From a virus, in the IMG/VR virus record IMGVR_UViG_3300045988_101895: a DNA stretch of 39,041 bases; one strand, written 5' to 3'. This document shows, one piece after another, positions 1,188 to 9,797 of this stretch (positions within the stretch are counted from its first letter, which is position 1; each line of letters opens with the position of its first letter). Both the position numbers and the translations under genes were made by a program. Under the pieces are notes generated by a model, which saw only the letters and a program-made list of their open reading frames with translations, did not search any database and was not told the origin of the DNA.

Positions 1188-1616
1188 TCAATCCGCTCTC
1201 CCCCGAAATATCACCACCGCCGATGGAAACGGCGCACTGCAATTAAGCCCGTTAAATCTAAGCCGTCCCCGCACAAAGCGCACCTCCCCGCGCATAGCGT
1301 AGTCATGCCACCAGCCGGTATCTGTCCGCGCAGGTACGAGGCACACCACCGTCGCACCGCTTTGGGCGGATTCATATGCCTTTTTCATCCATTTTCCGAT
1401 TTCGCGTCCGTATGGCGGGTTCATCCAGCAGGAGCCCCTCCACGTTTTTTCCAGTCCGTCGTCCGCTTTGGTGTAATATTCGGTGCATTTGGCATTTTCC
1501 GGCGTGGCGCATACGTCCACGTCAAAATGGAACTCCGCATCCAGAACCTTAAAAAAATCAAGCGGCGTTTCCCATTCGCAGCTGTTACTTGTGTACATCC
1601 CTTTGTTCATGCCCAT
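1188..1616 (-). CDS. phage DNA N6-adenine methyltransferase (Dam-like, phage Dam family)
   Basis: The translation contains EWETPLDFF...DVCATPENAKC...WMNPPYGREIGKWMKKA...VCLVPARTDTGWWH...VRFVRGRLRF. The NPPY catalytic motif and overall layout fit the phage Dam family. RBS is GGGAGGAAGGACAA-ATG. Confidence 0.85.
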   Translation of the reverse strand: MGMNKGMYTSNSCEWETPLDFFKVLDAEFHFDVDVCATPENAKCTEYYTKADDGLEKTWRGSCWMNPPYGREIGKWMKKAYESAQSGATVVCLVPARTDTGWWHDYAMRGEVRFVRGRLRFNGLNCSAPFPSAVVIFRGRAD

Positions 1617-1635
1617 TTGTCCTTCCTCCCTTGAT

Positions 1636-1664
1636 TTGATTTCTCGTTTTTTTCGTGGTATAAT
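1636..1664 (+). promoter_or_regulatory. sigma-70-type promoter, TTGATT-17 bp-TGgTATAAT (extended -10), rightward
   Basis: -35 TTGATT at 1636-1641, TG at 1656-1657, -10 TATAAT at 1659-1664. It shares the 11-mer GTGGTATAATA with the repressor promoter at 3947-3958. Confidence 0.65.
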
Positions 1665-1670
1665 ACAAGA

Positions 1671-1721
1671 GTCCTATTTCCTTTGGTTCGGGCCTCGGCG
1701 TTTTCGCCGGGGCCTTTTTTT
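1671..1721 (+). ncRNA. candidate ~50-nt small RNA, antisense to the leader of the leftward methyltransferase operon
   Basis: A consensus-like promoter is followed ~25 nt later by an intrinsic terminator, with no ORF between them. The transcript would be fully complementary to the minus-strand RNA just upstream of the Dam RBS. Confidence 0.5.
1691..1721 (+). terminator. rho-independent terminator (plus strand)
   Basis: GGCCTCGGCG-TTTT-CGCCGGGGCC forms a 10-bp stem with one G.U pair, followed by TTTTTTT (1715-1721). On the minus strand no U-run follows the hairpin. Confidence 0.7.
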
Positions 1722-1844
1722 GGTCCCATAAAATAGGCCCTCTTAGAGCGCCGGTGACGTACCAGTCCGCCGCGCGCCAGAGGGCCGCCCGCCCCGAAAA
1801 GATGGTGAAGGGGTAGGGTCGGGGTCATGCCCCTAGGAGGTGAT

Positions 1845-1865
1845 GGCACCCCACGCCTGAGGTGC
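1845..1865 (-). repeat. degenerate copy (R0) of the GGCGTGGnnTGGG hairpin motif
   Basis: The minus strand reads GCACCTCAGGCGTGGGGTGCC, with a GCACC/GGTGC stem. The core resembles R1-R3. Confidence 0.4.
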
Positions 1866-1890
1866 TACCCGGGTGTGTCCGGCCCGGGGT

Positions 1891-1961
1891 TGGTGGGGCC
1901 AGCCGGAGTTGAACCGGCCAGTGCGGGATTCCTGTGTTCCCGTGCCCAAACCGTGCGCCCC
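1891..1961 (-). ncRNA. tRNA-like element B (71 nt, encoded CCA), non-canonical
   Basis: Minus strand: GGGGCGCACGGTTTGGGCACGGGAACACAGGAATCCCGCACTGGCCGGTTCAACTCCGGCTGGCCCCACCA. The T arm is GCCGG-TTCAACT-CCGGC. The 3' end is TGGCCCC-A-CCA, and 5 of 7 acceptor pairs form. The stem CGGGA/TCCCG carries a 9-nt loop. There is no D stem. Confidence 0.45.
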
Positions 1962-2077
1962 ATGAAGTGCCCGTCTGTCCGGGCCGTCAAGCGTCTTTCC
2001 GCTTTGTCACACAACGGAAGGAGAGTTTCCCCCTCTCAAGGATGGACTGACAACCGGCACGTTGACCAGACGCACCG

Positions 2078-2173
2078 TGGTGGGGCGGGCGGGTGTCGAA
2101 CCCGCACCTTCGCCGCGTTAGCACAGCCGCGCGCATTTCGGCGACGTTCTTTCCCTGATGAACTCCCAGCCCC
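2078..2173 (-). ncRNA. tRNA-like element A (96 nt, encoded CCA), with the anticodon loop replaced by a 23-nt loop
   Basis: Minus strand: GGGGCTG-GGA-GTTC-ATCAGGGAAA-GAAC-G-TCGCCG-(23 nt)-CGGCGA-AGGT-GCGGG-TTCGACA-CCCGC-CCGCCCC-A-CCA. The acceptor stem has 6 of 7 pairs. The D arm has a GG loop. The variable region is 4 nt and the T arm is canonical. Confidence 0.5.
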
Positions 2174-2181
2174 ATGTTCGA

Positions 2182-2215
2182 CCCACTCCACGCCTTTGGC
2201 GCGTTGTGGGCTTCG
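2182..2215 (-). repeat. hairpin repeat R1 (34 nt)
   Basis: cccactccacgcctttggcgcgttgtgggcttcg matches R2 at 32 of 34 positions; both differences fall in the loop. The minus strand folds as CCCAC-AA-CGCGCC-loop-GGCGTG-GA-GTGGG. Confidence 0.8.
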
Positions 2216-2228
2216 GCCCTATGCGAGC

Positions 2229-2495
2229 CTATCCCCGCTCAAAGGGGATGACCTCCACGTTCCCGCAGAGCACCGGCTCCGGGCGGCGCAGGGTGTCGAG
2301 CCACGCCGTCAGCTGGGGCTCCAGCTCCTCCGGGGTCTTCCGACGGACGACGGCGTAGGGGAGGCCCCACCACTTCTGGGCCCACGCTTCGCACTCGTTC
2401 AGATAGGCCGGTGACTGGATCGCCCTCATGGCGGCTCTGGCGGTGTCCTGTGCGAGGATCGTCCGGGCCTGTGTGTCCAAGGCCATCGTGCTCAT
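2229..2495 (-). CDS. hypothetical protein (88 aa)
   Basis: Track ORF 2229..2522. The start MSTMALDTQ at 2495 follows AAAAAGGAGGAGACCCC and overlaps the upstream stop as ATGA. Confidence 0.6.
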   Translation of the reverse strand: MSTMALDTQARTILAQDTARAAMRAIQSPAYLNECEAWAQKWWGLPYAVVRRKTPEELEPQLTAWLDTLRRPEPVLCGNVEVIPFERG

Positions 2496-3190
2496 GGGGT
2501 CTCCTCCTTTTTCTCGGCCCACTCCACGCCTGCGGCGCGTTGTGGGCTTCGTCCTGCGCTGGCGCTTCGCGCCGTGCTCGTCCTCGGTTCGCTGCGCTCA
2601 CCCTTTTTTTCGGCCCATTCCACGCCCGCACCGCTGACCGTCGCGGGTCTCCGTCTGTGGGATCTCCCTTTTGGGGGCTGTTCTCGGTCTTGGCGTTTCG
2701 CGCCCTCCGGCAGATATTGAGCCAGCGCCGCCCGGGCGAATGCCTCGGCCTGTTTCCGTTTCACGGCCTTCTGGATCTCCTCCGCCGCGATTTTCCCCAC
2801 GGCCAGCTTGTACACCCGGCAGGGCTCCGGGCAGGTGAGGCAGTCAGCCCCGCAGCTCAGCTCCAGCAGCTCGTGGATCTTGAGCCGCCGCAGCCGCTCC
2901 ATCCCGTACTCGCAGGGGCTCTCGCACTCGATACAGGCTCCGAGGTTCAGCGTCCACCGTTGGTTCGTCCGCCCGTTATCCGCCGTTTTCCGCCCGCGTA
3001 TGTCCACCGGGTAGTGGGCGTTGTAACAGAGCGACTTTTCCAGCGTCTTGACGCTTCGGATCTTTCGGGGGTCGCAGTAGGTGTTGTGCGCGTTGATCGA
3101 CCCCTCCGAAGCAAAGAGGTGAGTCCCGAGGTCAAAGCGGGTCGCCATCTGGCCCGGCACGGCATGGAGGAAGTCATGGCTCTTTATCAT
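2492..3190 (-). CDS. hypothetical Cys-rich protein (possible Zn/Fe-S site); the C-terminal tail is translated through hairpin repeats R3 and R2
   Basis: Track ORF 2492..3262. The start MIKSHDFLHAV at 3190 overlaps the upstream stop as ATGA. Cys motifs: ACIECESPCEYG...SCGADCLTCPEPC. The tail contains AGVEWAEKK twice. Confidence 0.55.
   Translation of the reverse strand: MIKSHDFLHAVPGQMATRFDLGTHLFASEGSINAHNTYCDPRKIRSVKTLEKSLCYNAHYPVDIRGRKTADNGRTNQRWTLNLGACIECESPCEYGMERLRRLKIHELLELSCGADCLTCPEPCRVYKLAVGKIAAEEIQKAVKRKQAEAFARAALAQYLPEGAKRQDREQPPKGRSHRRRPATVSGAGVEWAEKKGERSEPRTSTARSASAGRSPQRAAGVEWAEKKEETP
2518..2551 (-). repeat. hairpin repeat R2 (34 nt)
   Basis: cccactccacgcctgcggcgcgttgtgggcttcg. 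It lies just upstream of the RBS of the 88-aa gene and inside the 3' end of the Cys-rich ORF. Confidence 0.8.
2604..2651 (-). repeat. hairpin repeat R3 (expanded 48-nt variant)
   Basis: cccattccacgcccgcaccgctgaccgtcgcgggtctccgtctgtggg has the same CCCA(C/T)TCCACGCC start and GTGGG end as R1/R2, with an inserted inner stem CCCGC/GCGGG. Confidence 0.6.
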
Positions 3191-3880: not shown

Positions 3881-3909
3881 ATTATACTTTATCAAATAAA
3901 GTTTGTCAA
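3881..3909 (-). promoter_or_regulatory. main leftward early promoter, perfect TTGACA-17 bp-TATAAT
   Basis: On the minus strand, TTGACA is at 3909..3904 and TATAAT at 3886..3881. It is followed after 3 nt by CACGTAATCAAGAG (3877..3864), the same leader as at 10365-10378. Confidence 0.8.
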
Positions 3910-3929
3910 CGGTTTTTGAACAAAAAATA

Positions 3930-3957
3930 TTGATTAAATGAAGTTTTGTGGTATAAT
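3930..3957 (+). promoter_or_regulatory. rightward repressor promoter, TTGATT-16 bp-TGgTATAAT
   Basis: -35 at 3930-3935, extended TG at 3949-3950, -10 at 3952-3957, 21 nt upstream of the repressor ATG. Confidence 0.7.
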
Positions 3958-3978
3958 ATAGTAGGAAAGGAGGTAAAC

Positions 3979-4356
3979 ATGACATCACTAAGTGAAAGAA
4001 TCAAGGCTGTACGTAAGGCAGCCGGGCTGAATCAGAAGGACTTTGGCACAAAGATCGGTATCGGGATGTCCGCCGTGTCGCTCCTTGAGAGCGGCACGAA
4101 CAACCCGTCAGACCAGACGCTCCGCCTGATCTGCTCCGAGTTCGGTATCTCCCGCCGGTGGCTGGAGACCGGCGATGGGGAGATGATCGACCCGCAGGTG
4201 AGCAGCGACATCCAGTCCATCACCCGCACCATGGAGGGCCAGAGCGAGGCCAAGAAGCGGCTGGTCAGGTTCGTGGTCAACATGCCGCCGGATCTGGCGG
4301 AAGCATTTCTGGCGTATCTGGACAGCCAAACGCAAAAAGAAGACCCCCGGACGTAG
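3979..4356 (+). CDS. CI-like repressor, XRE-family HTH
   Basis: Start MTSLSERIKAVRKAAGLNQKDFGTKIGIGMSAVSLLESGTNNPSDQTLRLICSEFGISRRWLETGDGEM follows AGGAAAGGAGG. It is divergent from the early operon. Confidence 0.8.
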   Translation: MTSLSERIKAVRKAAGLNQKDFGTKIGIGMSAVSLLESGTNNPSDQTLRLICSEFGISRRWLETGDGEMIDPQVSSDIQSITRTMEGQSEAKKRLVRFVVNMPPDLAEAFLAYLDSQTQKEDPRT

Positions 4357-6060: not shown

Positions 6061-7623
6061 ATGAAAGCTGTTATCTACGCCCGTTACTCCTCGGAGAAGC
6101 AGCAGGAGATCAGCATCGAGGGGCAGCTCCGGGTCTGTCAGGAGTTCGCGGCACGGGAGGGCTACGAGGTCGTGGACACGTACACCGACCGCGCCCTGTC
6201 CGCCAGCCGGGACGTGGAGCGCCGGGAGGATTTCCAGCGGATGATCCGGGACAGCAGCCGCCGGGGCTTTGACGTGGTCATCGTCTACAAGTTCAGCCGA
6301 TTCGCCCGGAATCGGTACGACAGTGCCGTCTACAAGGCCCGACTCCGGCAGAACGGCGTGAAGGTGGTCAGCGCGTGCGAGCCCATCAGCGCCAACCCGG
6401 AGGGCGCGCTGATCGAGGGCATTTTTGAGAGCCTCGACGAGTTCTATAGCAAGTCGTTGGCACAGGACGTGACGAGAGGAATGCACGAGAACGCCACCAA
6501 GGCCCTGTCCACCGGCGGCACCATCCCGCTTGGCTATGTGTCCGTTGATAAGCGGCTACAGATCGACCCGGCCACCGCGCCCGCCGTCCGGCTGGCCTTT
6601 GAGCGCTACGCCGATGGCATGAGCCTCGCCCGGATCGCGGACGAGCTGAACGCGCAGGGCTATCGCACCCGGGCCGGGAAGGCGTTCAACCGCTCGTCCT
6701 TTAACGCCCTGCTATCCAACAGGAAGTACATCGGCACCTATCATTATAATGGCGAGGTGGAGCTGGTGGGGCAAGTCCCGCCCATCGTCGACCCCGGCAC
6801 CTTCCGCCGTGTACAGGAGCGGCTCCGCAAAAACACGACGGCCCCCGGGCGCACCAAGGCCACGATCAATTACCTCCTGAGCACGAAGCTCTACTGTGGC
6901 GCGTGCGGCAAGCCCATGGCGGGGGAGAGCGGCCACAACCACTCCGGGACGCGGTACTACTACTACGCGTGCAGCGGGCGCAAGCGCCGCCTCGGGTGCA
7001 AGATGCCCACCCTCCGCAAGGACGACTTGGAGCGGCTGGTGGTGGAGCACGCCCGGGCGCTGTTAAGCCCGGGCAACATCAAGGCACTGGCCCACGCCGC
7101 CGCGGCTGAATATCAGCGTCAGGCCGAGGACGACAGCGCCGCCGTGTCCCTCCGCCGCCAGTTGGACGAGGTGACGCGCTCGCTGGACAACCTCCTGCGC
7201 ATGGTGGAGCAGGGCGCGGTCTCCGCCACGCTGGTGGGGCGCATCAACGAGCTGGAGGGGCGCAAAGCCAGCATCGCCGCCGAGCTGGCCGATGAGCAGC
7301 GCGGCGCGCCCGAGCTGACGGAGGTGGATATCCTGCGGTGGTTATCCTGTTTTGCGGATGGGTGTTTGGAGGATGAGGACTATATGCGGAATGTCATTGA
7401 TATGCTGGTGAATAAGATCGTGGTACAACAAAACCCGAACCAGAAGGTCTCTATCCTCGTGGCCTACAATCTGGCGGGCCGTGGGGATGAGATTTCTGGT
7501 TCGGGTTTGGTGGATGTGGTACACCAAGCCCGGCATAATCCGAACCTTTGCACCAGAGCAACGGAGTCTTGCATGACTTTCCTATTATATCATGGATGCG
7601 CGATATTTCAACTGGCGTCGTAA
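6061..7623 (+). CDS. int: large serine recombinase (phage integrase)
   Basis: MKAVIYARYSSEKQQEISIEGQ carries the catalytic Ser motif of the resolvase domain. It is followed by a recombinase domain, a zinc ribbon (CGACGKPM...YYYYACSGRKRRLGC) and a coiled coil. Length is 520 aa. Confidence 0.9.
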   Translation: MKAVIYARYSSEKQQEISIEGQLRVCQEFAAREGYEVVDTYTDRALSASRDVERREDFQRMIRDSSRRGFDVVIVYKFSRFARNRYDSAVYKARLRQNGVKVVSACEPISANPEGALIEGIFESLDEFYSKSLAQDVTRGMHENATKALSTGGTIPLGYVSVDKRLQIDPATAPAVRLAFERYADGMSLARIADELNAQGYRTRAGKAFNRSSFNALLSNRKYIGTYHYNGEVELVGQVPPIVDPGTFRRVQERLRKNTTAPGRTKATINYLLSTKLYCGACGKPMAGESGHNHSGTRYYYYACSGRKRRLGCKMPTLRKDDLERLVVEHARALLSPGNIKALAHAAAAEYQRQAEDDSAAVSLRRQLDEVTRSLDNLLRMVEQGAVSATLVGRINELEGRKASIAAELADEQRGAPELTEVDILRWLSCFADGCLEDEDYMRNVIDMLVNKIVVQQNPNQKVSILVAYNLAGRGDEISGSGLVDVVHQARHNPNLCTRATESCMTFLLYHGCAIFQLAS

Positions 7624-8788: not shown

Positions 8789-9517
8789 TCAGCAGCAGCC
8801 GCAGCCGTTATAGCCCGAGTTACAGCCGCAGCCGGCCACGCGGTTGATGATCCGGTTGGTCTCCTGGCTCATCACGCCCGCCAGATAGTTGTTCTGGTTG
8901 GCCTGACTGGCCGCCAGCTTGAGAGACTGGTTCTCGTCCTGTAGGGTCGCCAGCTTGTCCTGCGTCAGGAAATCCAGCACGGCGCGGGTACCGGCGTTCT
9001 GCGCGTCGATGATATCCCGGGCCGCCGTCTGGACGGTGTTGCGGGTGTCGCACGCCTGCGTCGCCATGTTGTAGTTGATGTCCGCGAAGCCCCGCTCCAT
9101 CTGGCGCTGGGTCTCACAGCAGCACTGCTGATTGGCCGCGCCCATGGTGTAGAGCTGGTGCATGAGGGCCGCCTGCTGGTTGGAACGAGAAAGCTCCGCC
9201 TGAGCAAAGCCGTTGGCCATGCTTTGCTGAACACCGTTTACCAGCTGAGCCTGAGCATAGAGGCCGTCGCAGAGTCCGTTGTTGACTCCGTCGATCTTCC
9301 GTTCGATGTTTGCAAAGTCGCTGGTGAGGACGTAGCCGTCCATCGCCGAGCCCTGTCCGCCCCGGTTACCGCCGAAGCCGCCGTTACCCCAGCCAAACAG
9401 CAGGGCAAAGACCACGATGATCCAGAGCCAGTTTCCATCGCCGAACATCCCGTTGGAGTTGTTTCGGCCCTCGCTTACGCCTACCGCGTAGCCGCTGGAA
9501 AAATCATTATCCGCCAT
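8789..9517 (-). CDS. hypothetical membrane protein, Q/N-rich helical region, Cys-rich C-terminus
   Basis: RBS AAGGAGCGATAACACT. TM segment WLWIIVVFALLFGW is followed by GNGGFGGNRGG. It contains an internal CCC triplet and the C-terminus GCGCNSGYNGCGCC. Confidence 0.6.
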   Translation of the reverse strand: MADNDFSSGYAVGVSEGRNNSNGMFGDGNWLWIIVVFALLFGWGNGGFGGNRGGQGSAMDGYVLTSDFANIERKIDGVNNGLCDGLYAQAQLVNGVQQSMANGFAQAELSRSNQQAALMHQLYTMGAANQQCCCETQRQMERGFADINYNMATQACDTRNTVQTAARDIIDAQNAGTRAVLDFLTQDKLATLQDENQSLKLAASQANQNNYLAGVMSQETNRIINRVAGCGCNSGYNGCGCC

Positions 9518-9575
9518 AGTGTTATCGCTCCTTATCTTATATTCGCAGCGCGGGCCGCGCGCTCCCGCGGGTGCT

Positions 9576-9797
9576 TCATGATCTGATACCCAGACCCCGG
9601 AGGATCGCCTCCGGGCTCGTCCCCCGCTCCCGGGCCATGTTCTCCGCCATCCGGCGCAGCTGGTCGGGAGTCTTACCCTGTACCATTTTGAGGGCTTGGG
9701 CCATCATGGGGTCATTCCCGGCCAGCTGGCTGAGGATCTGGATGGGGTCGCCGCCGCCCTGTGCGGCCTGCAAAAGCATCATGATGGGGTTATTCAT
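9576..9797 (-). CDS. hypothetical small helical protein (73 aa)
   Basis: MNNPIMMLLQAAQGGGDPIQILSQLAGNDPMMAQALKMVQGKTPDQLRRMAENMARERG. Its start overlaps the upstream stop by 8 nt. Confidence 0.55.
   Translation of the reverse strand: MNNPIMMLLQAAQGGGDPIQILSQLAGNDPMMAQALKMVQGKTPDQLRRMAENMARERGTSPEAILRGLGIRS

What the first reader, a model, noticed from the sequence alone, without database searches (positions are those of the whole stretch)
1891..2173. Two tandem tRNA-like RNAs with encoded CCA but no usable anticodon loop, embedded in the early operon
The elements lie on the minus strand between the 88-aa gene and the Dam gene.
- Element A (2173->2078, 96 nt) has an acceptor stem GGGGCTG/CCGCCCC-A-CCA. 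It has a D arm GTTC-ATCAGGGAAA-GAAC, a 4-nt variable region and a canonical T arm GCGGG-TTCGACA-CCCGC. Its anticodon stem (TCGCCG/CGGCGA) is capped by a 23-nt loop instead of 7 nt.
- Element B (1961->1891, 71 nt) has the T arm GCCGG-TTCAACT-CCGGC and the 3' end TGGCCCC-A-CCA. It has only 5 acceptor pairs, no D stem, and a 5-bp stem with a 9-nt loop (ACACAGGAA).
- The 5' end of A (GGGGCUG GGAGUUCAUCAGGGA) also resembles, from memory, the tmRNA 5' end (GGGGxxx..GGAUUCGACxGGGA).

Neither element looks able to decode. Possible roles are RNase P/Z punctuation of the >30-kb leftward transcript, decoys for tRNA-targeting defence nucleases, or aminoacylatable tmRNA-like mimics. I cannot choose between these from sequence alone.
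Basis: partly seen in the sequence, partly recalled or inferred. Interest (0 to 1): 0.8.

Follow-up and report, generated by a model that had tools for sequence, protein, structure and literature searches.

The report
Non-decoding tRNA mimics flanking phage RNAs
Two conserved tRNA-shaped RNAs that cannot read codons flank a small conserved RNA in a gut phage's early operon, in the positions where other phages carry real tRNAs, so they most likely act as cutting signals for the host's tRNA-processing enzymes.

Summary
Element A (2173->2078, minus strand) scores above the Rfam tRNA threshold. Its 'anticodon' arm is a 6-bp stem capped by a 23-nt loop. Element B (1961->1891) keeps only an acceptor stem, a T-like arm and ACCA. 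Both recur in about 25 gut-phage contigs. A's stem is fully compensated between two subtypes while a 19-nt loop core never changes.

The slot is modular. At least seven tRNA-like designs, down to a 46-nt minihelix, plus a genuine tRNA-Met, alternate with conserved non-coding RNAs.

The A-B spacer ('S') carries a two-hairpin motif (loops GAAAGA and GACAGA). The motif has no Rfam match and occurs in at least 119 viral stretches across phyla. In other phages a real tRNA starts 5-10 nt after it, always on the same strand. S also lies between real tRNAs there.

Best reading (about 0.5): A and B are non-decoding tRNA mimics cut by RNase P and the 3'-end maturation enzymes. The cuts punctuate the early transcript and release S and a downstream RNA, X. 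The tmRNA-like and intron-tRNA readings fail their tests. A decoy role is not excluded. What S does (small RNA or put-like antiterminator) is unresolved. No expression data exist.

The parts
2078..2173 (-). Element A: a tRNA-shaped RNA. It has an acceptor stem of 7 pairs plus one bulge or mismatch, a D arm, a 6-bp 'anticodon' stem with a 23-nt loop, a 4-nt variable region, a canonical T arm, discriminator A and encoded CCA.
   Evidence: Rfam tRNA 35.8 bits against a gathering score of 29, with a 25-nt loop insertion. 14 distinct variants occur in about 25 contigs. 99.2% of cells are paired. Four pairs carry changes on both sides, all in the anticodon-like stem, and 0/500 shuffles reach the observed score. 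The loop core AUGCGCGCGGCUGUGCUAA is invariant.
1962..2077 (-). S RNA, the 'spacer' between A and B. It consists of a 5' hairpin (2077->2055), a CU-rich anti-Shine-Dalgarno-like stretch with a small hairpin (2047->2016), the conserved two-hairpin core, and a 7-nt tail ACUUCAU that ends at B's +1.
   Evidence: Sequence and fold. The spacer is conserved wherever A is followed by another tRNA-like element. In sister phages it is always bracketed by tRNA-like elements or real tRNAs.
1969..2009 (-). Two-hairpin core of S: UGAC-AAAG-[CG GAAAGA CG]-CUU-GACG-GCC-[CG GACAGA CG]-GGC.
   Evidence: The exact 37-nt pattern is in 30 viral and 5 genome contigs. The generalised pattern is in at least 119 viral stretches. 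The outer stem pairs covary (96% paired, 35 doubly changed cells, 0/500 shuffles). It has no Rfam match. There is a single copy in the window.
1891..1961 (-). Element B: a reduced tRNA-like RNA. It has a 5-bp acceptor stem, an unpaired 12-nt 'D region', a hairpin with the loop ACACAGGAA, a T-like arm GCCGG-UUCAACU-CCGGC, discriminator A and encoded CCA.
   Evidence: Sequence. The same element occurs in at least 10 contigs. The diverged copy B' in L041 has a compensated 2:71 pair and a restored 6:67 pair. B starts 10 nt after the S core, the position taken by real tRNAs elsewhere. Caveat: an alternative rod-like fold is more stable.
1728..1890 (-). X RNA. It has two small 5' hairpins, a single-stranded CAUCACCUCCUA (like the 16S rRNA 3' end; 1845->1834), the hairpin GGGG-CAUGA-CCCC, the hairpin CCCUACCCC...GGGGCGGG, and a long terminal hairpin (1786->1736) followed by UAUUUUAU.
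   Evidence: The fold has z = -2.1 in the window and -2.9 in the L041 homologue, with the same three-hairpin layout. X is present in 13 viral loci and always starts directly after the CCA of a tRNA-like element. A terminator-like call covers 1749->1737.
3881..3909 (-). Predicted early leftward promoter (TTGACA-17-TATAAT, 12/12 matches). It would drive the transcript through the cro-like gene, the 81-aa, 256-aa and 88-aa ORFs and into A-S-B-X.
   Evidence: Consensus scan. The cro-like HTH ORF is at 3665-3429 and the divergent repressor at 3946-4356. This is a prediction only.

Best explanation
A and B are non-decoding tRNA mimics. They keep the part of a tRNA that the tRNA-maturation machinery reads: the stacked acceptor and T-arm helices, the discriminator and an encoded CCA.

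Proposed sequence of events:
1. They are transcribed as part of the early leftward operon. The promoter is predicted at 3909->3881.
2. Host RNase P cuts 5' of G2173/2172 (A) and 5' of G1961 (B). 3'-end maturation trims at the CCA ends (2078 and 1891).
3. The cuts separate the upstream cro...88-aa mRNA from the non-coding block. They give the S RNA (2077->1962) a 3' end 7 nt after its second hairpin. They give the X RNA (1890->about 1728) its 5' end.
4. A and B are released as stable tRNA-sized by-products. They may have a further role of their own, because A's 19-nt loop core is invariant.

Shown:
- The structures, their conservation and their covariation.
- The strict alternation of tRNA-like elements with conserved non-coding RNAs.
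- The equivalence of B's position to that of real tRNAs in other phages.

Inferred:
- Transcription from the predicted promoter, the cleavage events, and that releasing S and X is the selected purpose.

What S does is open. The two candidates are a small RNA with an anti-Shine-Dalgarno-like seed and a put-like antiterminator.
For: 1. A is tRNA-shaped by a covariance model, except for the loop.
2. Structure is under selection. A1 and A2 differ at every pair of the 6-bp stem yet stay paired. L008 carries a further compensated pair. The D stem never varies, the T stem has one G-C to G-U change, and the acceptor stem has two single unpaired cells.
3. Seven or more different tRNA-like designs occupy the same slots: A1, A2, B, C, D, E, F and G, where G is a 46-nt acceptor/T-arm minihelix. 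All keep an acceptor stem, a T-like arm and NCCA. The exceptions are the B and G copies that precede the long RNA L, which lack CCA. The 'anticodon' part is free to vary or vanish. This points to a generic 'top-half' function.
4. In about 15 architectures every conserved non-coding RNA (S, X, L) is bracketed by tRNA-like elements or real tRNAs. In L041 a genuine tRNA-Met (59 bits) sits where A sits.
5. In unrelated phages the S core is followed at 5-10 nt by a bona fide tRNA (Met, Gly, Gln, or a long-arm type). 32 of 142 S sites have an ARAGORN tRNA within 400 nt, all 32 on the same strand, against 3.7% for random positions.
6. S also lies between real tRNAs: Leu-S-Gln and Lys-S-Gln.
7. CCA-ending acceptor/T-arm modules are about 21 times denser within 250 nt of S than elsewhere.
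8. Where no tRNA follows, S is often followed by a U-run (12 distinct sites). That is another way to end an RNA just after hairpin 2.
9. Nearly all modules have U at -1, usually within (A)CAU|G, and an ACCA directly after the acceptor stem. From established knowledge of bacterial RNase P, both features favour cleavage. The RCCA dependence of non-tRNA substrates is also stated in the abstract of PMC12710915, listed.
10. No conserved ORF spans the region. The 62-aa ORF over A is destroyed by the module swaps.
Against: - There is no expression or end-mapping data of any kind, so cleavage is inferred.
- A's acceptor stem carries a bulge or mismatch. B has only 5 acceptor pairs and a more stable alternative fold. 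The T-loop of B' (UUCGGCU) has G at position 58, which is not a canonical T-loop.
- A stable hairpin begins immediately after A's CCA. This would hinder exonucleolytic 3' trimming, so S's 5' end may not be formed at 2077.
- The invariance of A's 19-nt loop core and of B's loop motif ACACAGG is not explained by a pure punctuation role.
- About 15 distinct S sites lie directly in front of a ribosome-binding site, and many others precede a further hairpin. This fits a cis-acting leader better than a released small RNA. In that case the tRNA adjacency could reflect co-location in compact tRNA clusters rather than processing.
- The loci are related to one another, so the enrichment figures count non-independent events.
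Confidence: 0.5

Rival explanations
1. A and B are trans-acting tRNA mimics with a function of their own. They could be decoys or sponges for host factors or defence toxins that recognise tRNA shape or the acceptor/CCA end. Alternatively they could be regulators that act through their conserved loops. Their adjacency to S and X would then be incidental.
For: - A's 19-nt loop core stays invariant while the closing stem is completely exchanged.
- B's loop motif ACACAGG is conserved in the diverged copy B'.
- All designs keep the acceptor stem plus ACCA, which is what toxins aimed at the acceptor end would bind.
- A persists without S in L004 and L060.
Against: - The loops differ completely between interchangeable module types: a 23-nt loop, 9-nt and 7-nt loops, or no arm at all in G. 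A loop-specific function cannot be the common denominator.
- No convincing complementary target for the loops was found in the window.
- There is only one copy of each element per genome, which is few for a sponge.
- The strict alternation with conserved RNAs is left unexplained.
Confidence: 0.2
2. The tRNA-like elements are not cleaved off. They act as folding insulators or protective caps (a natural 'tRNA scaffold') that keep S and X correctly folded and shield them from exonucleases inside a long mRNA.
For: - S's first hairpin starts at the nucleotide after A's CCA, leaving no single-stranded trailer.
- The imperfect acceptor stems of A and B could make them poor RNase P substrates.
Against: - Encoded ACCA and U(-1) are conserved across nearly all designs. 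These are features of processing substrates, not of mere insulators.
- Real tRNAs occupy the same positions elsewhere, and real tRNAs are certainly processed.
Confidence: 0.1
3. A and B are decaying relics of former phage tRNA genes and have no present function.
For: - Other phages carry real tRNAs in the equivalent positions.
- The anticodon regions are destroyed.
Against: - 99% of base-pair cells are maintained over 11 distinct variants, with changes on both sides confined to one stem.
- The A1/A2 stem exchange cannot be neutral drift, given an otherwise almost identical element.
- C and D show 5 compensated pairs.
- ACCA is retained throughout.
Confidence: 0.07
4. The elements are functional adaptor RNAs. 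A would be a decoding tRNA with a short intron. Alternatively A and B would be aminoacylatable tmRNA-like molecules.
For: - With its threshold lowered to 80%, ARAGORN calls A 'tRNA-Val(aac) with an 18-nt intron' and B 'tRNA-Leu(cag)', and proposes permuted tmRNAs.
- There is a weak tmRNA_permuted hit in sister locus L007 (14.4 bits, E=1.5).
Against: - Nothing is called at default thresholds.
- The sixth stem pair covaries (G-C in A1, C-G in A2). The stem is therefore 6 bp and the loop 22-23 nt, which is not a 5-bp stem with a 37/38 intron.
- The phage is bacterial: its terminase is closest to Bacillota phages, and it has sigma-70 promoters. From established knowledge, bacteria have no tRNA splicing endonuclease.
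- G3:C70 replaces the G3.U70 alanine identity pair.
- No tmRNA model hits the window at E<=10.
- There is no tag frame, and the 'tag' proposed at the lowered threshold would start inside A's acceptor strand.
Confidence: 0.03

Closest known systems
MALAT1/mascRNA and MEN-beta/menRNA: tRNA-like structures that direct RNase P to form the 3' end of an upstream non-coding RNA
   Same: A non-decoding tRNA-like fold lies immediately downstream of a structured non-coding RNA. RNase P cleavage at its 5' side would create the upstream RNA's 3' end and release a small tRNA-like by-product. See the abstracts of PMC8457004 and PMC4824109, listed.
   Different: Those are eukaryotic nuclear lncRNAs, with one tRNA-like element per transcript and CCA added after transcription. 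Here the setting is a bacterial phage operon. The tRNA-likes lie on both sides, CCA is encoded, and the designs are interchangeable. Cleavage has not been demonstrated.
tRNA punctuation of polycistronic transcripts (mitochondria) and regulatory RNAs derived from bacterial tRNA-operon spacers (for example the 3'ETS of leuZ; from my own knowledge)
   Same: Functional RNAs are defined by the tRNA-processing cuts on either side. In other phages S is literally an inter-tRNA spacer (Leu-S-Gln and Lys-S-Gln).
   Different: In this phage family the punctuating elements no longer decode. They have been reduced to processing-competent shapes, and they sit inside a protein-coding early operon rather than a tRNA operon.
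Phage P1/P7 C4 and P4 CI antisense RNAs, and the small stable RNAs of the T4 tRNA cluster. All are matured from early transcripts by RNase P (from my own knowledge).
   Same: They are temperate-phage early-operon RNAs whose ends are made by RNase P through a tRNA-like acceptor helix plus CCA.
   Different: No match to Rfam C4 (RF01695) or any other family. In C4 and CI the regulatory RNA is itself the RNase P substrate and its loops pair with targets in the same operon. No such targets were found here, and the conserved RNA (S) is separate from the tRNA-like elements.
Canonical phage-encoded tRNAs
   Same: A has the full cloverleaf layout and T-loop and scores above the tRNA family threshold. 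It occupies the slot used by tRNA-Met in L041.
   Different: There is no 7-nt anticodon loop, no U33 and no anticodon. The acceptor stem is imperfect. ARAGORN does not call it.
tmRNA tRNA-like domain
   Same: A G-rich 5' end (GGGGC...), a T arm, ACCA, and for B a missing D stem.
   Different: No G3.U70, no tag frame, no pseudoknot body and no tmRNA model hit. The elements are 71 and 96 nt, against about 350 nt for a tmRNA.
HK022 put RNA (relevant to S, not to A or B)
   Same: Two stem-loops in the early transcript of a temperate phage. The activity of put does not need the tether to the elongation complex (PMC9378689), so release by RNase P would be tolerated. S usually lies after cro-like genes and before replication genes or terminator-like hairpins. 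One phage, L138, has two copies in two divergent intergenic regions.
   Different: The S core is about 41 nt, against about 70 nt for put. No sequence similarity was tested. RNA polymerase binding is untested. Many S copies are followed by a U-run or a tRNA rather than lying next to a promoter.

Membership tests
tRNA (Rfam RF00005; decoding tRNA) | Cloverleaf scored by the family covariance model at or above its gathering score | tested here: met
   A scores 35.8 bits against a gathering score of 29. B has no hit at E<=10, so this feature is met for A only.
tRNA (Rfam RF00005; decoding tRNA) | 5-bp anticodon stem with a 7-nt loop carrying U33 and an anticodon | tested here: not met
   A has a 6-bp covarying stem with a 22-23-nt loop, and the covariance model inserts 25 nt. 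B has a 5-bp stem with the 9-nt loop ACACAGGAA.
tRNA (Rfam RF00005; decoding tRNA) | Called by a standard tRNA gene finder at default settings | tested here: not met
   ARAGORN finds 0 genes in the window and in 9 loci, 8 of them sister phages. Calls appear only at an 80% threshold, with a non-canonical 'intron'.
tRNA (Rfam RF00005; decoding tRNA) | Aminoacylation and decoding on the ribosome | not testable with these tools
   Needs biochemistry.
tmRNA | Match to a tmRNA covariance model (standard or permuted) | tested here: not met
   No tmRNA family hits window 1600-2700 at E<=10. In sister locus L007 the tmRNA_permuted model gives 14.4 bits against a gathering score of 47, E=1.5.
tmRNA | G3.U70 alanine identity pair in the acceptor stem | tested here: not met
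   Position 3:70 is G-C in A, B, C, D and G.
tmRNA | Tag reading frame and pseudoknots between the two halves of the tRNA-like domain | tested here: not met
   A is 96 nt and B is 71 nt, which leaves no room for them. ARAGORN finds no tmRNA at default settings. The tags proposed at the lowered threshold start inside A's acceptor strand.
RNase P-directed tRNA-like processing signal (mascRNA type; tRNA punctuation) | Stacked acceptor and T-arm helices with a T-loop | tested here: met
   A has 7 acceptor pairs (one bulge) plus a 5-bp T stem and the loop UUCGACA. B has 5 plus 5-6 pairs and the loop UUCAACU, but an alternative fold exists.
RNase P-directed tRNA-like processing signal (mascRNA type; tRNA punctuation) | RCCA directly after the acceptor stem and a favourable -1 nucleotide | tested here: met
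   Both elements have ACCA. Nearly all modules in all loci have U(-1) within (A)CAU|G.
RNase P-directed tRNA-like processing signal (mascRNA type; tRNA punctuation) | The element abuts a conserved RNA whose end it would define, and is interchangeable with real tRNAs | tested here: met
   B starts 10 nt after the S core. Real tRNAs start 5-10 nt after the S core at 24 distinct sites. tRNA-Met replaces A in L041.
RNase P-directed tRNA-like processing signal (mascRNA type; tRNA punctuation) | Demonstrated cleavage and discrete products | not testable with these tools
   No transcriptome data are available. RACE, Northern blots or an in vitro RNase P assay are needed.
C4/CI-type phage antisense RNA (RF01695) | Covariance-model match, and loops complementary to sites in the same operon | tested here: not met
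   No Rfam hit. The duplex scan of the loops against both strands of the window found only GC-rich matches at chance level, apart from the trivial self-antisense.
put-type antiterminator RNA (for the spacer S) | Two stem-loops in the early transcript, upstream of terminators | tested here: inconclusive
   Two covarying hairpins. S often lies after cro-like genes and before replication genes or hairpins. It also lies directly before tRNAs, U-runs or ribosome-binding sites. Promoter proximity could not be established.
put-type antiterminator RNA (for the spacer S) | Binds RNA polymerase and suppresses termination without protein factors | not testable with these tools
   Needs a reporter or in vitro transcription assay.

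The most novel reading that the evidence does not exclude
The spacer S is a previously undescribed, widespread class of phage RNA found in phages of Bacillota and Neisseriaceae. It acts on the transcription machinery as a put-like, protein-independent antiterminator. The flanking tRNAs or tRNA mimics are a dedicated release mechanism: RNase P excises the antiterminator from the nascent transcript so that it can stay on the polymerase. In this phage lineage real tRNAs have been stripped down to non-decoding 'cut-here' modules.
Probability: 0.15. Interest if true: 0.85.

Novelty: new variant of a known kind. Interest (0 to 1): 0.62.

Why it matters
tRNA-like structures used only as processing signals are textbook cases in mitochondria and for MALAT1. 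In bacteria and phages they are known only as scattered cases, such as C4/CI and the spacers of tRNA operons.

This locus would add three things:
- A phage lineage in which the tRNA 'top half' plus CCA has been kept, diversified into at least seven designs and shuffled as cassettes, while decoding was abandoned. That would be a natural dissection of what the tRNA-maturation machinery needs.
- A conserved two-hairpin RNA motif with no Rfam match, found in at least 119 viral stretches across phyla and physically coupled to tRNA 5' ends. This gives RNA biologists a concrete, testable candidate for a new small RNA or antiterminator class.
- A practical warning for annotation. Such elements are missed by ARAGORN and by fast Rfam scans, or would be mislabelled as pseudo-tRNAs, and the RNAs between them are overlooked.

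Tried and rejected
1. Targets for the loops. An RNAduplex scan of the A, B and C/D loops against both strands of the window found only GC-rich matches at chance level. An 8-9-nt complementarity of A's loop to the 16S 530 region, noticed by eye, was judged chance.
2. Host prophage search. The exact A loop has no match in 185,579 species genomes. The host genus remains unknown. The terminase points to Bacillota phages.
3. attP reading of B (a 3' tRNA or tmRNA fragment). Rejected because the phage integrase is a large serine recombinase and B is swapped for other modules in sister phages.
4. tmRNA and permuted tmRNA. Only noise-level hits or hits at a lowered threshold.
5. Intron-containing tRNA. 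Rejected because the 6-bp stem covaries.
6. Coding potential. The 62-aa and 49-aa ORFs over A and B are not conserved across the module swaps.
7. Known RNA families for S, X and the long RNA L. None in Rfam 15.
8. Annotated phage genomes. S occurs only in one unannotated prophage record, BK070131, and not in E. coli genomes.
9. Literature search by sequence and by topic. Nothing describes these elements.
10. A consistent promoter just upstream of S. Not demonstrable from a position profile.
11. tRNA-related enzymes encoded by the phage. None found among the early ORFs.
Full report
OBSERVATION

Element A (2173->2078, 96 nt) has these parts:
- Acceptor strands GGGGCUG / CCGCCCC.
- A D arm GUUC-AUCAGGGAAA-GAAC.
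- A stem UCGCCG/CGGCGA closed by a 23-nt loop.
- A 4-nt variable region.
- A canonical T arm GCGGG-UUCGACA-CCCGC.
- Discriminator A and an encoded CCA.

Element B (1961->1891, 71 nt) has these parts:
- Five acceptor pairs and no D stem.
- A hairpin with the 9-nt loop ACACAGGAA.
- A T-like arm GCCGG-UUCAACU-CCGGC.
- ACCA at the 3' end.

Both lie between the 88-aa ORF (2495-2229) and a Dam methyltransferase gene (1616-1188; PF05869, E=2e-28).

IS IT MORE THAN CHANCE?

ARAGORN finds nothing. The fast Rfam run at gathering thresholds also finds nothing. With permissive filters, A matches the tRNA family at 35.8 bits, above the gathering score of 29. The model places a 25-nt insertion where the 7-nt anticodon loop belongs. 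The E-value is 1.4e-5 for the region and 4.8e-4 for the whole window, where A is the only hit of any family.

Folding energies are not exceptional for this GC-rich sequence, with z about -0.9 for both elements. The case therefore rests on the covariance model and on comparative data. B has no model hit of its own. Its 3' 28 nt are 79% identical to A's.

CONSERVATION AND COVARIATION

Exact-pattern scans recovered A in 9 IMG/VR contigs of 8.5-39 kb (most 37-39 kb) and in 14 metagenome stretches, where the source is named mostly human gut. They recovered B in at least 10 contigs. There are 14 distinct A variants.

On 11 of these variants, 99.2% of base-pair cells are standard pairs. Four pairs carry changes on both sides, all in the anticodon-like stem, and none of 500 shuffles reaches the observed score.

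Two subtypes exist. A1 has the stem UCGCCG/CGGCGA and A2 has GCACUC/GAGUGC. Every pair is exchanged, including the sixth, so the stem really is 6 bp and the loop 22-23 nt. The 19-nt loop core AUGCGCGCGGCUGUGCUAA is unchanged. The D stem never varies and the T stem has a single G-C to G-U change. The sixth nucleotide of the acceptor 5' strand varies (U, C or A) and is best read as a bulge or mismatch.

B has one diverged relative, B' in L041. B' has a compensated 2:71 pair and a restored 6:67 pair. However, RNAalifold and the minimum-free-energy fold prefer an alternative rod-like fold for B. The T-loop of B' also has G at position 58. B is therefore less securely 'tRNA-like' than A.

A MODULAR SLOT

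Sister phages carry different elements in the same place:
- A-S-B-X: the window, L006, L008, L010 and others.
- A-S-A-X: L001.
- C-S-A-X: L002, L005 and L003.
- A-X: L004 and L060.
- A-S-B(no CCA)-L-D-X: L007 and L063.
- A2-S-D'-X: L030, L054 and L058.
- A2-S-G-...: L062 and L160.
- E-X'-tRNA-Met-S-B'-L'-F: L041.
- F'-S-...-tRNA-Gly: L046.

C and D lack a D arm. They have 7 acceptor pairs, a middle stem of 8-9 bp with a 7-nt loop, a T-like arm and ACCA, with five compensated pairs. G is a 46-nt acceptor/T-arm minihelix with no anticodon arm at all.

All designs keep the acceptor stem, a T-like arm and NCCA. The CCA is missing only in the B and G copies that precede the long RNA L. Nearly all have U at -1, within (A)CAU|G. 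What varies freely is the part a decoding tRNA needs.

In L041 a genuine tRNA-Met (CAU; ARAGORN, and 59 bits in Rfam) occupies A's slot.

THE SPACER IS ITSELF A CONSERVED RNA

The 116 nt between A and B (S, 2077->1962) contains four parts:
- A 5' hairpin.
- A CU-rich anti-Shine-Dalgarno-like stretch (CCUU..., CUCUCCUUCC).
- A two-hairpin core at 2009->1969: UGAC-AAAG-CG[GAAAGA]CG-CUU-GACG-GCC-CG[GACAGA]CG-GGC.
- A 7-nt tail that ends at B's +1.

A 41-nt stretch of S was the only similarity to any deposited phage record, the unrelated prophage BK070131. The exact 37-nt pattern occurs in 30 IMG/VR contigs and 5 species genomes: uncultured Clostridiales and Eubacteriales, Candidatus Limiplasma, Eikenella longinqua and an Alloprevotella bin. 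Their GC content ranges from 48% to 61%.

There are 81 distinct versions. The unfixed outer stem pairs covary: 96% of cells are paired, 35 cells are changed on both sides, and 0 of 500 shuffles reach the observed score. L160 even has a fully compensated hairpin-1 stem.

No Rfam family matches S. No paper in the library carries the sequence. The window has one copy.

S IS COUPLED TO tRNAs ELSEWHERE

Among 142 S sites in the fetched loci, 32 have an ARAGORN tRNA within 400 nt. Random positions give 3.7%. All 32 tRNAs are on the same strand as S. Typically the tRNA starts 5-10 nt after the S core. The tRNAs are tRNA-Met, tRNA-Gly, tRNA-Gln and a long-arm tRNA.

In three lineages S is the spacer between two real tRNAs: Leu-30 nt-S-8 nt-Gln and Lys-37 nt-S-9 nt-Gln. 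CCA-ending acceptor/T-arm modules are about 21 times denser within 250 nt of S than elsewhere in the same loci.

Of 109 distinct S sites:
- 24 are followed by a real tRNA.
- At least 16 are followed by a tRNA-like element.
- 12 are followed by a U-run.
- The rest are followed by another hairpin, or by a ribosome-binding site about 20 nt downstream.

In the window B begins 10 nt after the S core. This is the position that real tRNAs take. These counts include related loci and are not independent events.

SURROUNDINGS

The phage is temperate. It encodes a large serine recombinase (6061-7623), an HTH repressor (3946-4356), a cro-like ORF (3665-3429), replication-initiator and ParB-like genes, and terminase subunits. 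Its large terminase is closest to those of Bacillota phages.

A perfect consensus promoter on the minus strand (3909->3881) faces the operon that contains A-S-B.

Downstream of B lies X (1890->about 1728). It has a single-stranded CAUCACCUCCUA, three hairpins, and a long terminal hairpin followed by UAUUUUAU. The same layout recurs in L041. X occurs in 13 viral loci and always begins right after the CCA of a tRNA-like element. In L041 a tRNA-Met follows it 8 nt later.

No tRNA-related enzyme is encoded among the early ORFs scanned.

MECHANISM PROPOSED

Shown:
- A, and less securely B, are conserved structured tRNA mimics that cannot decode.
- They alternate with conserved non-coding RNAs.
- They are interchangeable with one another and with real tRNAs.

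Inferred, from the established substrate rules of bacterial RNase P (acceptor/T-arm stack, 3' RCCA, U at -1) and of tRNA 3' maturation:
- The early transcript is cut 5' of G2173/2172 and G1961, and trimmed at CCA 2078 and 1891.
- The cuts detach the upstream mRNA, give S its 3' end just after hairpin 2, and give X its 5' end.
- A and B are released as by-products.

I put about 0.75 on A and B being RNase P substrates in vivo. I put about 0.5 on punctuation and maturation of the neighbouring RNAs being the selected function.

The function of S is open, with two readings:
- A small RNA with a conserved 3' scaffold and a CCUCC seed. The tRNA or the U-run right after hairpin 2 favours this.
- A put-like cis-acting antiterminator. 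Several observations favour this. S usually lies after cro-like genes and before replication genes or hairpins. L138 has two copies. The loops are invariant across phyla. The activity of HK022 put does not need the RNA tether (PMC9378689).

RIVAL READINGS

- An independent decoy or regulator role for A and B (0.2). This is kept alive by A's invariant loop. It is weakened because interchangeable modules share no loop, and because no targets were found.
- Uncleaved insulators or caps (0.1).
- Functionless relics (0.07). The covariation contradicts this.
- Intron-containing tRNA or tmRNA-like molecules (0.03). These fail several tests. Position 3:70 is G-C. There is no tmRNA model hit. Calls appear only at lowered thresholds. 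The 14.4-bit permuted-tmRNA hit in L007 is at noise level.

COMPARISON WITH KNOWN SYSTEMS AND NOVELTY

The elements work most like mascRNA/MALAT1 and like tRNA punctuation. The nearest bacterial relatives are regulatory RNAs derived from tRNA-operon spacers and the RNase P-matured phage RNAs C4 and CI. These elements are members of none of those families.

A meets the tRNA family's structural score but fails its defining anticodon-loop feature. It should be described as a tRNA mimic, not as a tRNA.

I rate the finding as a new variant of a known kind. The S motif appears to be undescribed.

LIMITS

- There are no expression data.
- The host is unknown.
- Only two A subtypes and two B versions have been sampled.
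- The loci are related to one another.
- The S search fixed the loops, so loop invariance is partly by construction. The exceptions are the first, exact-pattern hits across phyla and the L160 variant.

Noticed in passing
window 1969-2009 (minus strand); L020-L159: A two-hairpin RNA motif (loops GAAAGA and GACAGA, conserved 5' UGRCAAA and linker UGRC) occurs in at least 119 viral stretches and 5 species genomes across Bacillota and Neisseriaceae. It has no Rfam match. Its outer stems covary. It usually lies after cro-like genes and before replication, Rha, ParB or Ogr genes. It is often directly upstream of tRNAs.
   Followed up: yes
window 1728-1890 (minus strand); L041 7072-7177: The conserved 'X' RNA downstream of B has a single-stranded CAUCACCUCCUA (like the 16S rRNA 3' end), three hairpins, and a terminal hairpin followed by UAUUUUAU. 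It occurs in 13 viral loci and always starts right after the CCA of a tRNA-like element. Its function is unknown.
   Followed up: partly
window 1636-1722 (plus strand): An extended -10 promoter (TTGATT-17-TATAAT, preceded by TG) is followed about 25 nt later by a strong intrinsic terminator (1690-1715 plus U7). This predicts an RNA of about 50 nt that is antisense to the leader of the Dam gene and convergent with the early operon. It is conserved in sister phages.
   Followed up: partly
window 2178-2218 and 2514-2554, plus a partial copy around 2600-2625: A repeated element of about 41 nt (GAAGCCCACAACGCGCCNNAGGCGUGGAGUGGG...) is built of GNA-triloop mini-hairpins (of the GCGAAGC type). It is inserted at different places in sister phages, including inside the 3' end of the 256-aa ORF and inside X. 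It looks like a small mobile or expandable repeat.
   Followed up: partly
L007 (reverse strand) about 9300-9590; also L063, L062, L161 and L041 7395-7660: A conserved RNA of about 290 nt ('L') sits between a CCA-less B or G and a D or F element in some sister phages. It contains an internal CCA-less tRNA-like fold and a CU-rich CCCUCUCCUU stretch. It has no Rfam match and no conserved ORF.
   Followed up: partly
L066, L074, L087, L089, L128, L134, L150, L157 (about 9 nt after the S core): A 90-nt long-arm tRNA follows S in one phage lineage. Its anticodon differs between close relatives (GUU, GCU or GUA). Its loop has A rather than U at position 33, which suggests another non-standard or hypervariable tRNA.
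   Followed up: no
L138 4849 and 5428: Two copies of the S motif lie 580 nt apart in the same orientation. Each is in a divergent intergenic region about 45 nt upstream of a ribosome-binding site. The arrangement resembles the putL/putR or nutL/nutR pairs.
   Followed up: no
window 3881-3957: A back-to-back promoter pair sits in the immunity region. A perfect TTGACA-17-TATAAT faces left towards the cro-like ORF. A TG-extended promoter faces right towards the HTH repressor.
   Followed up: no
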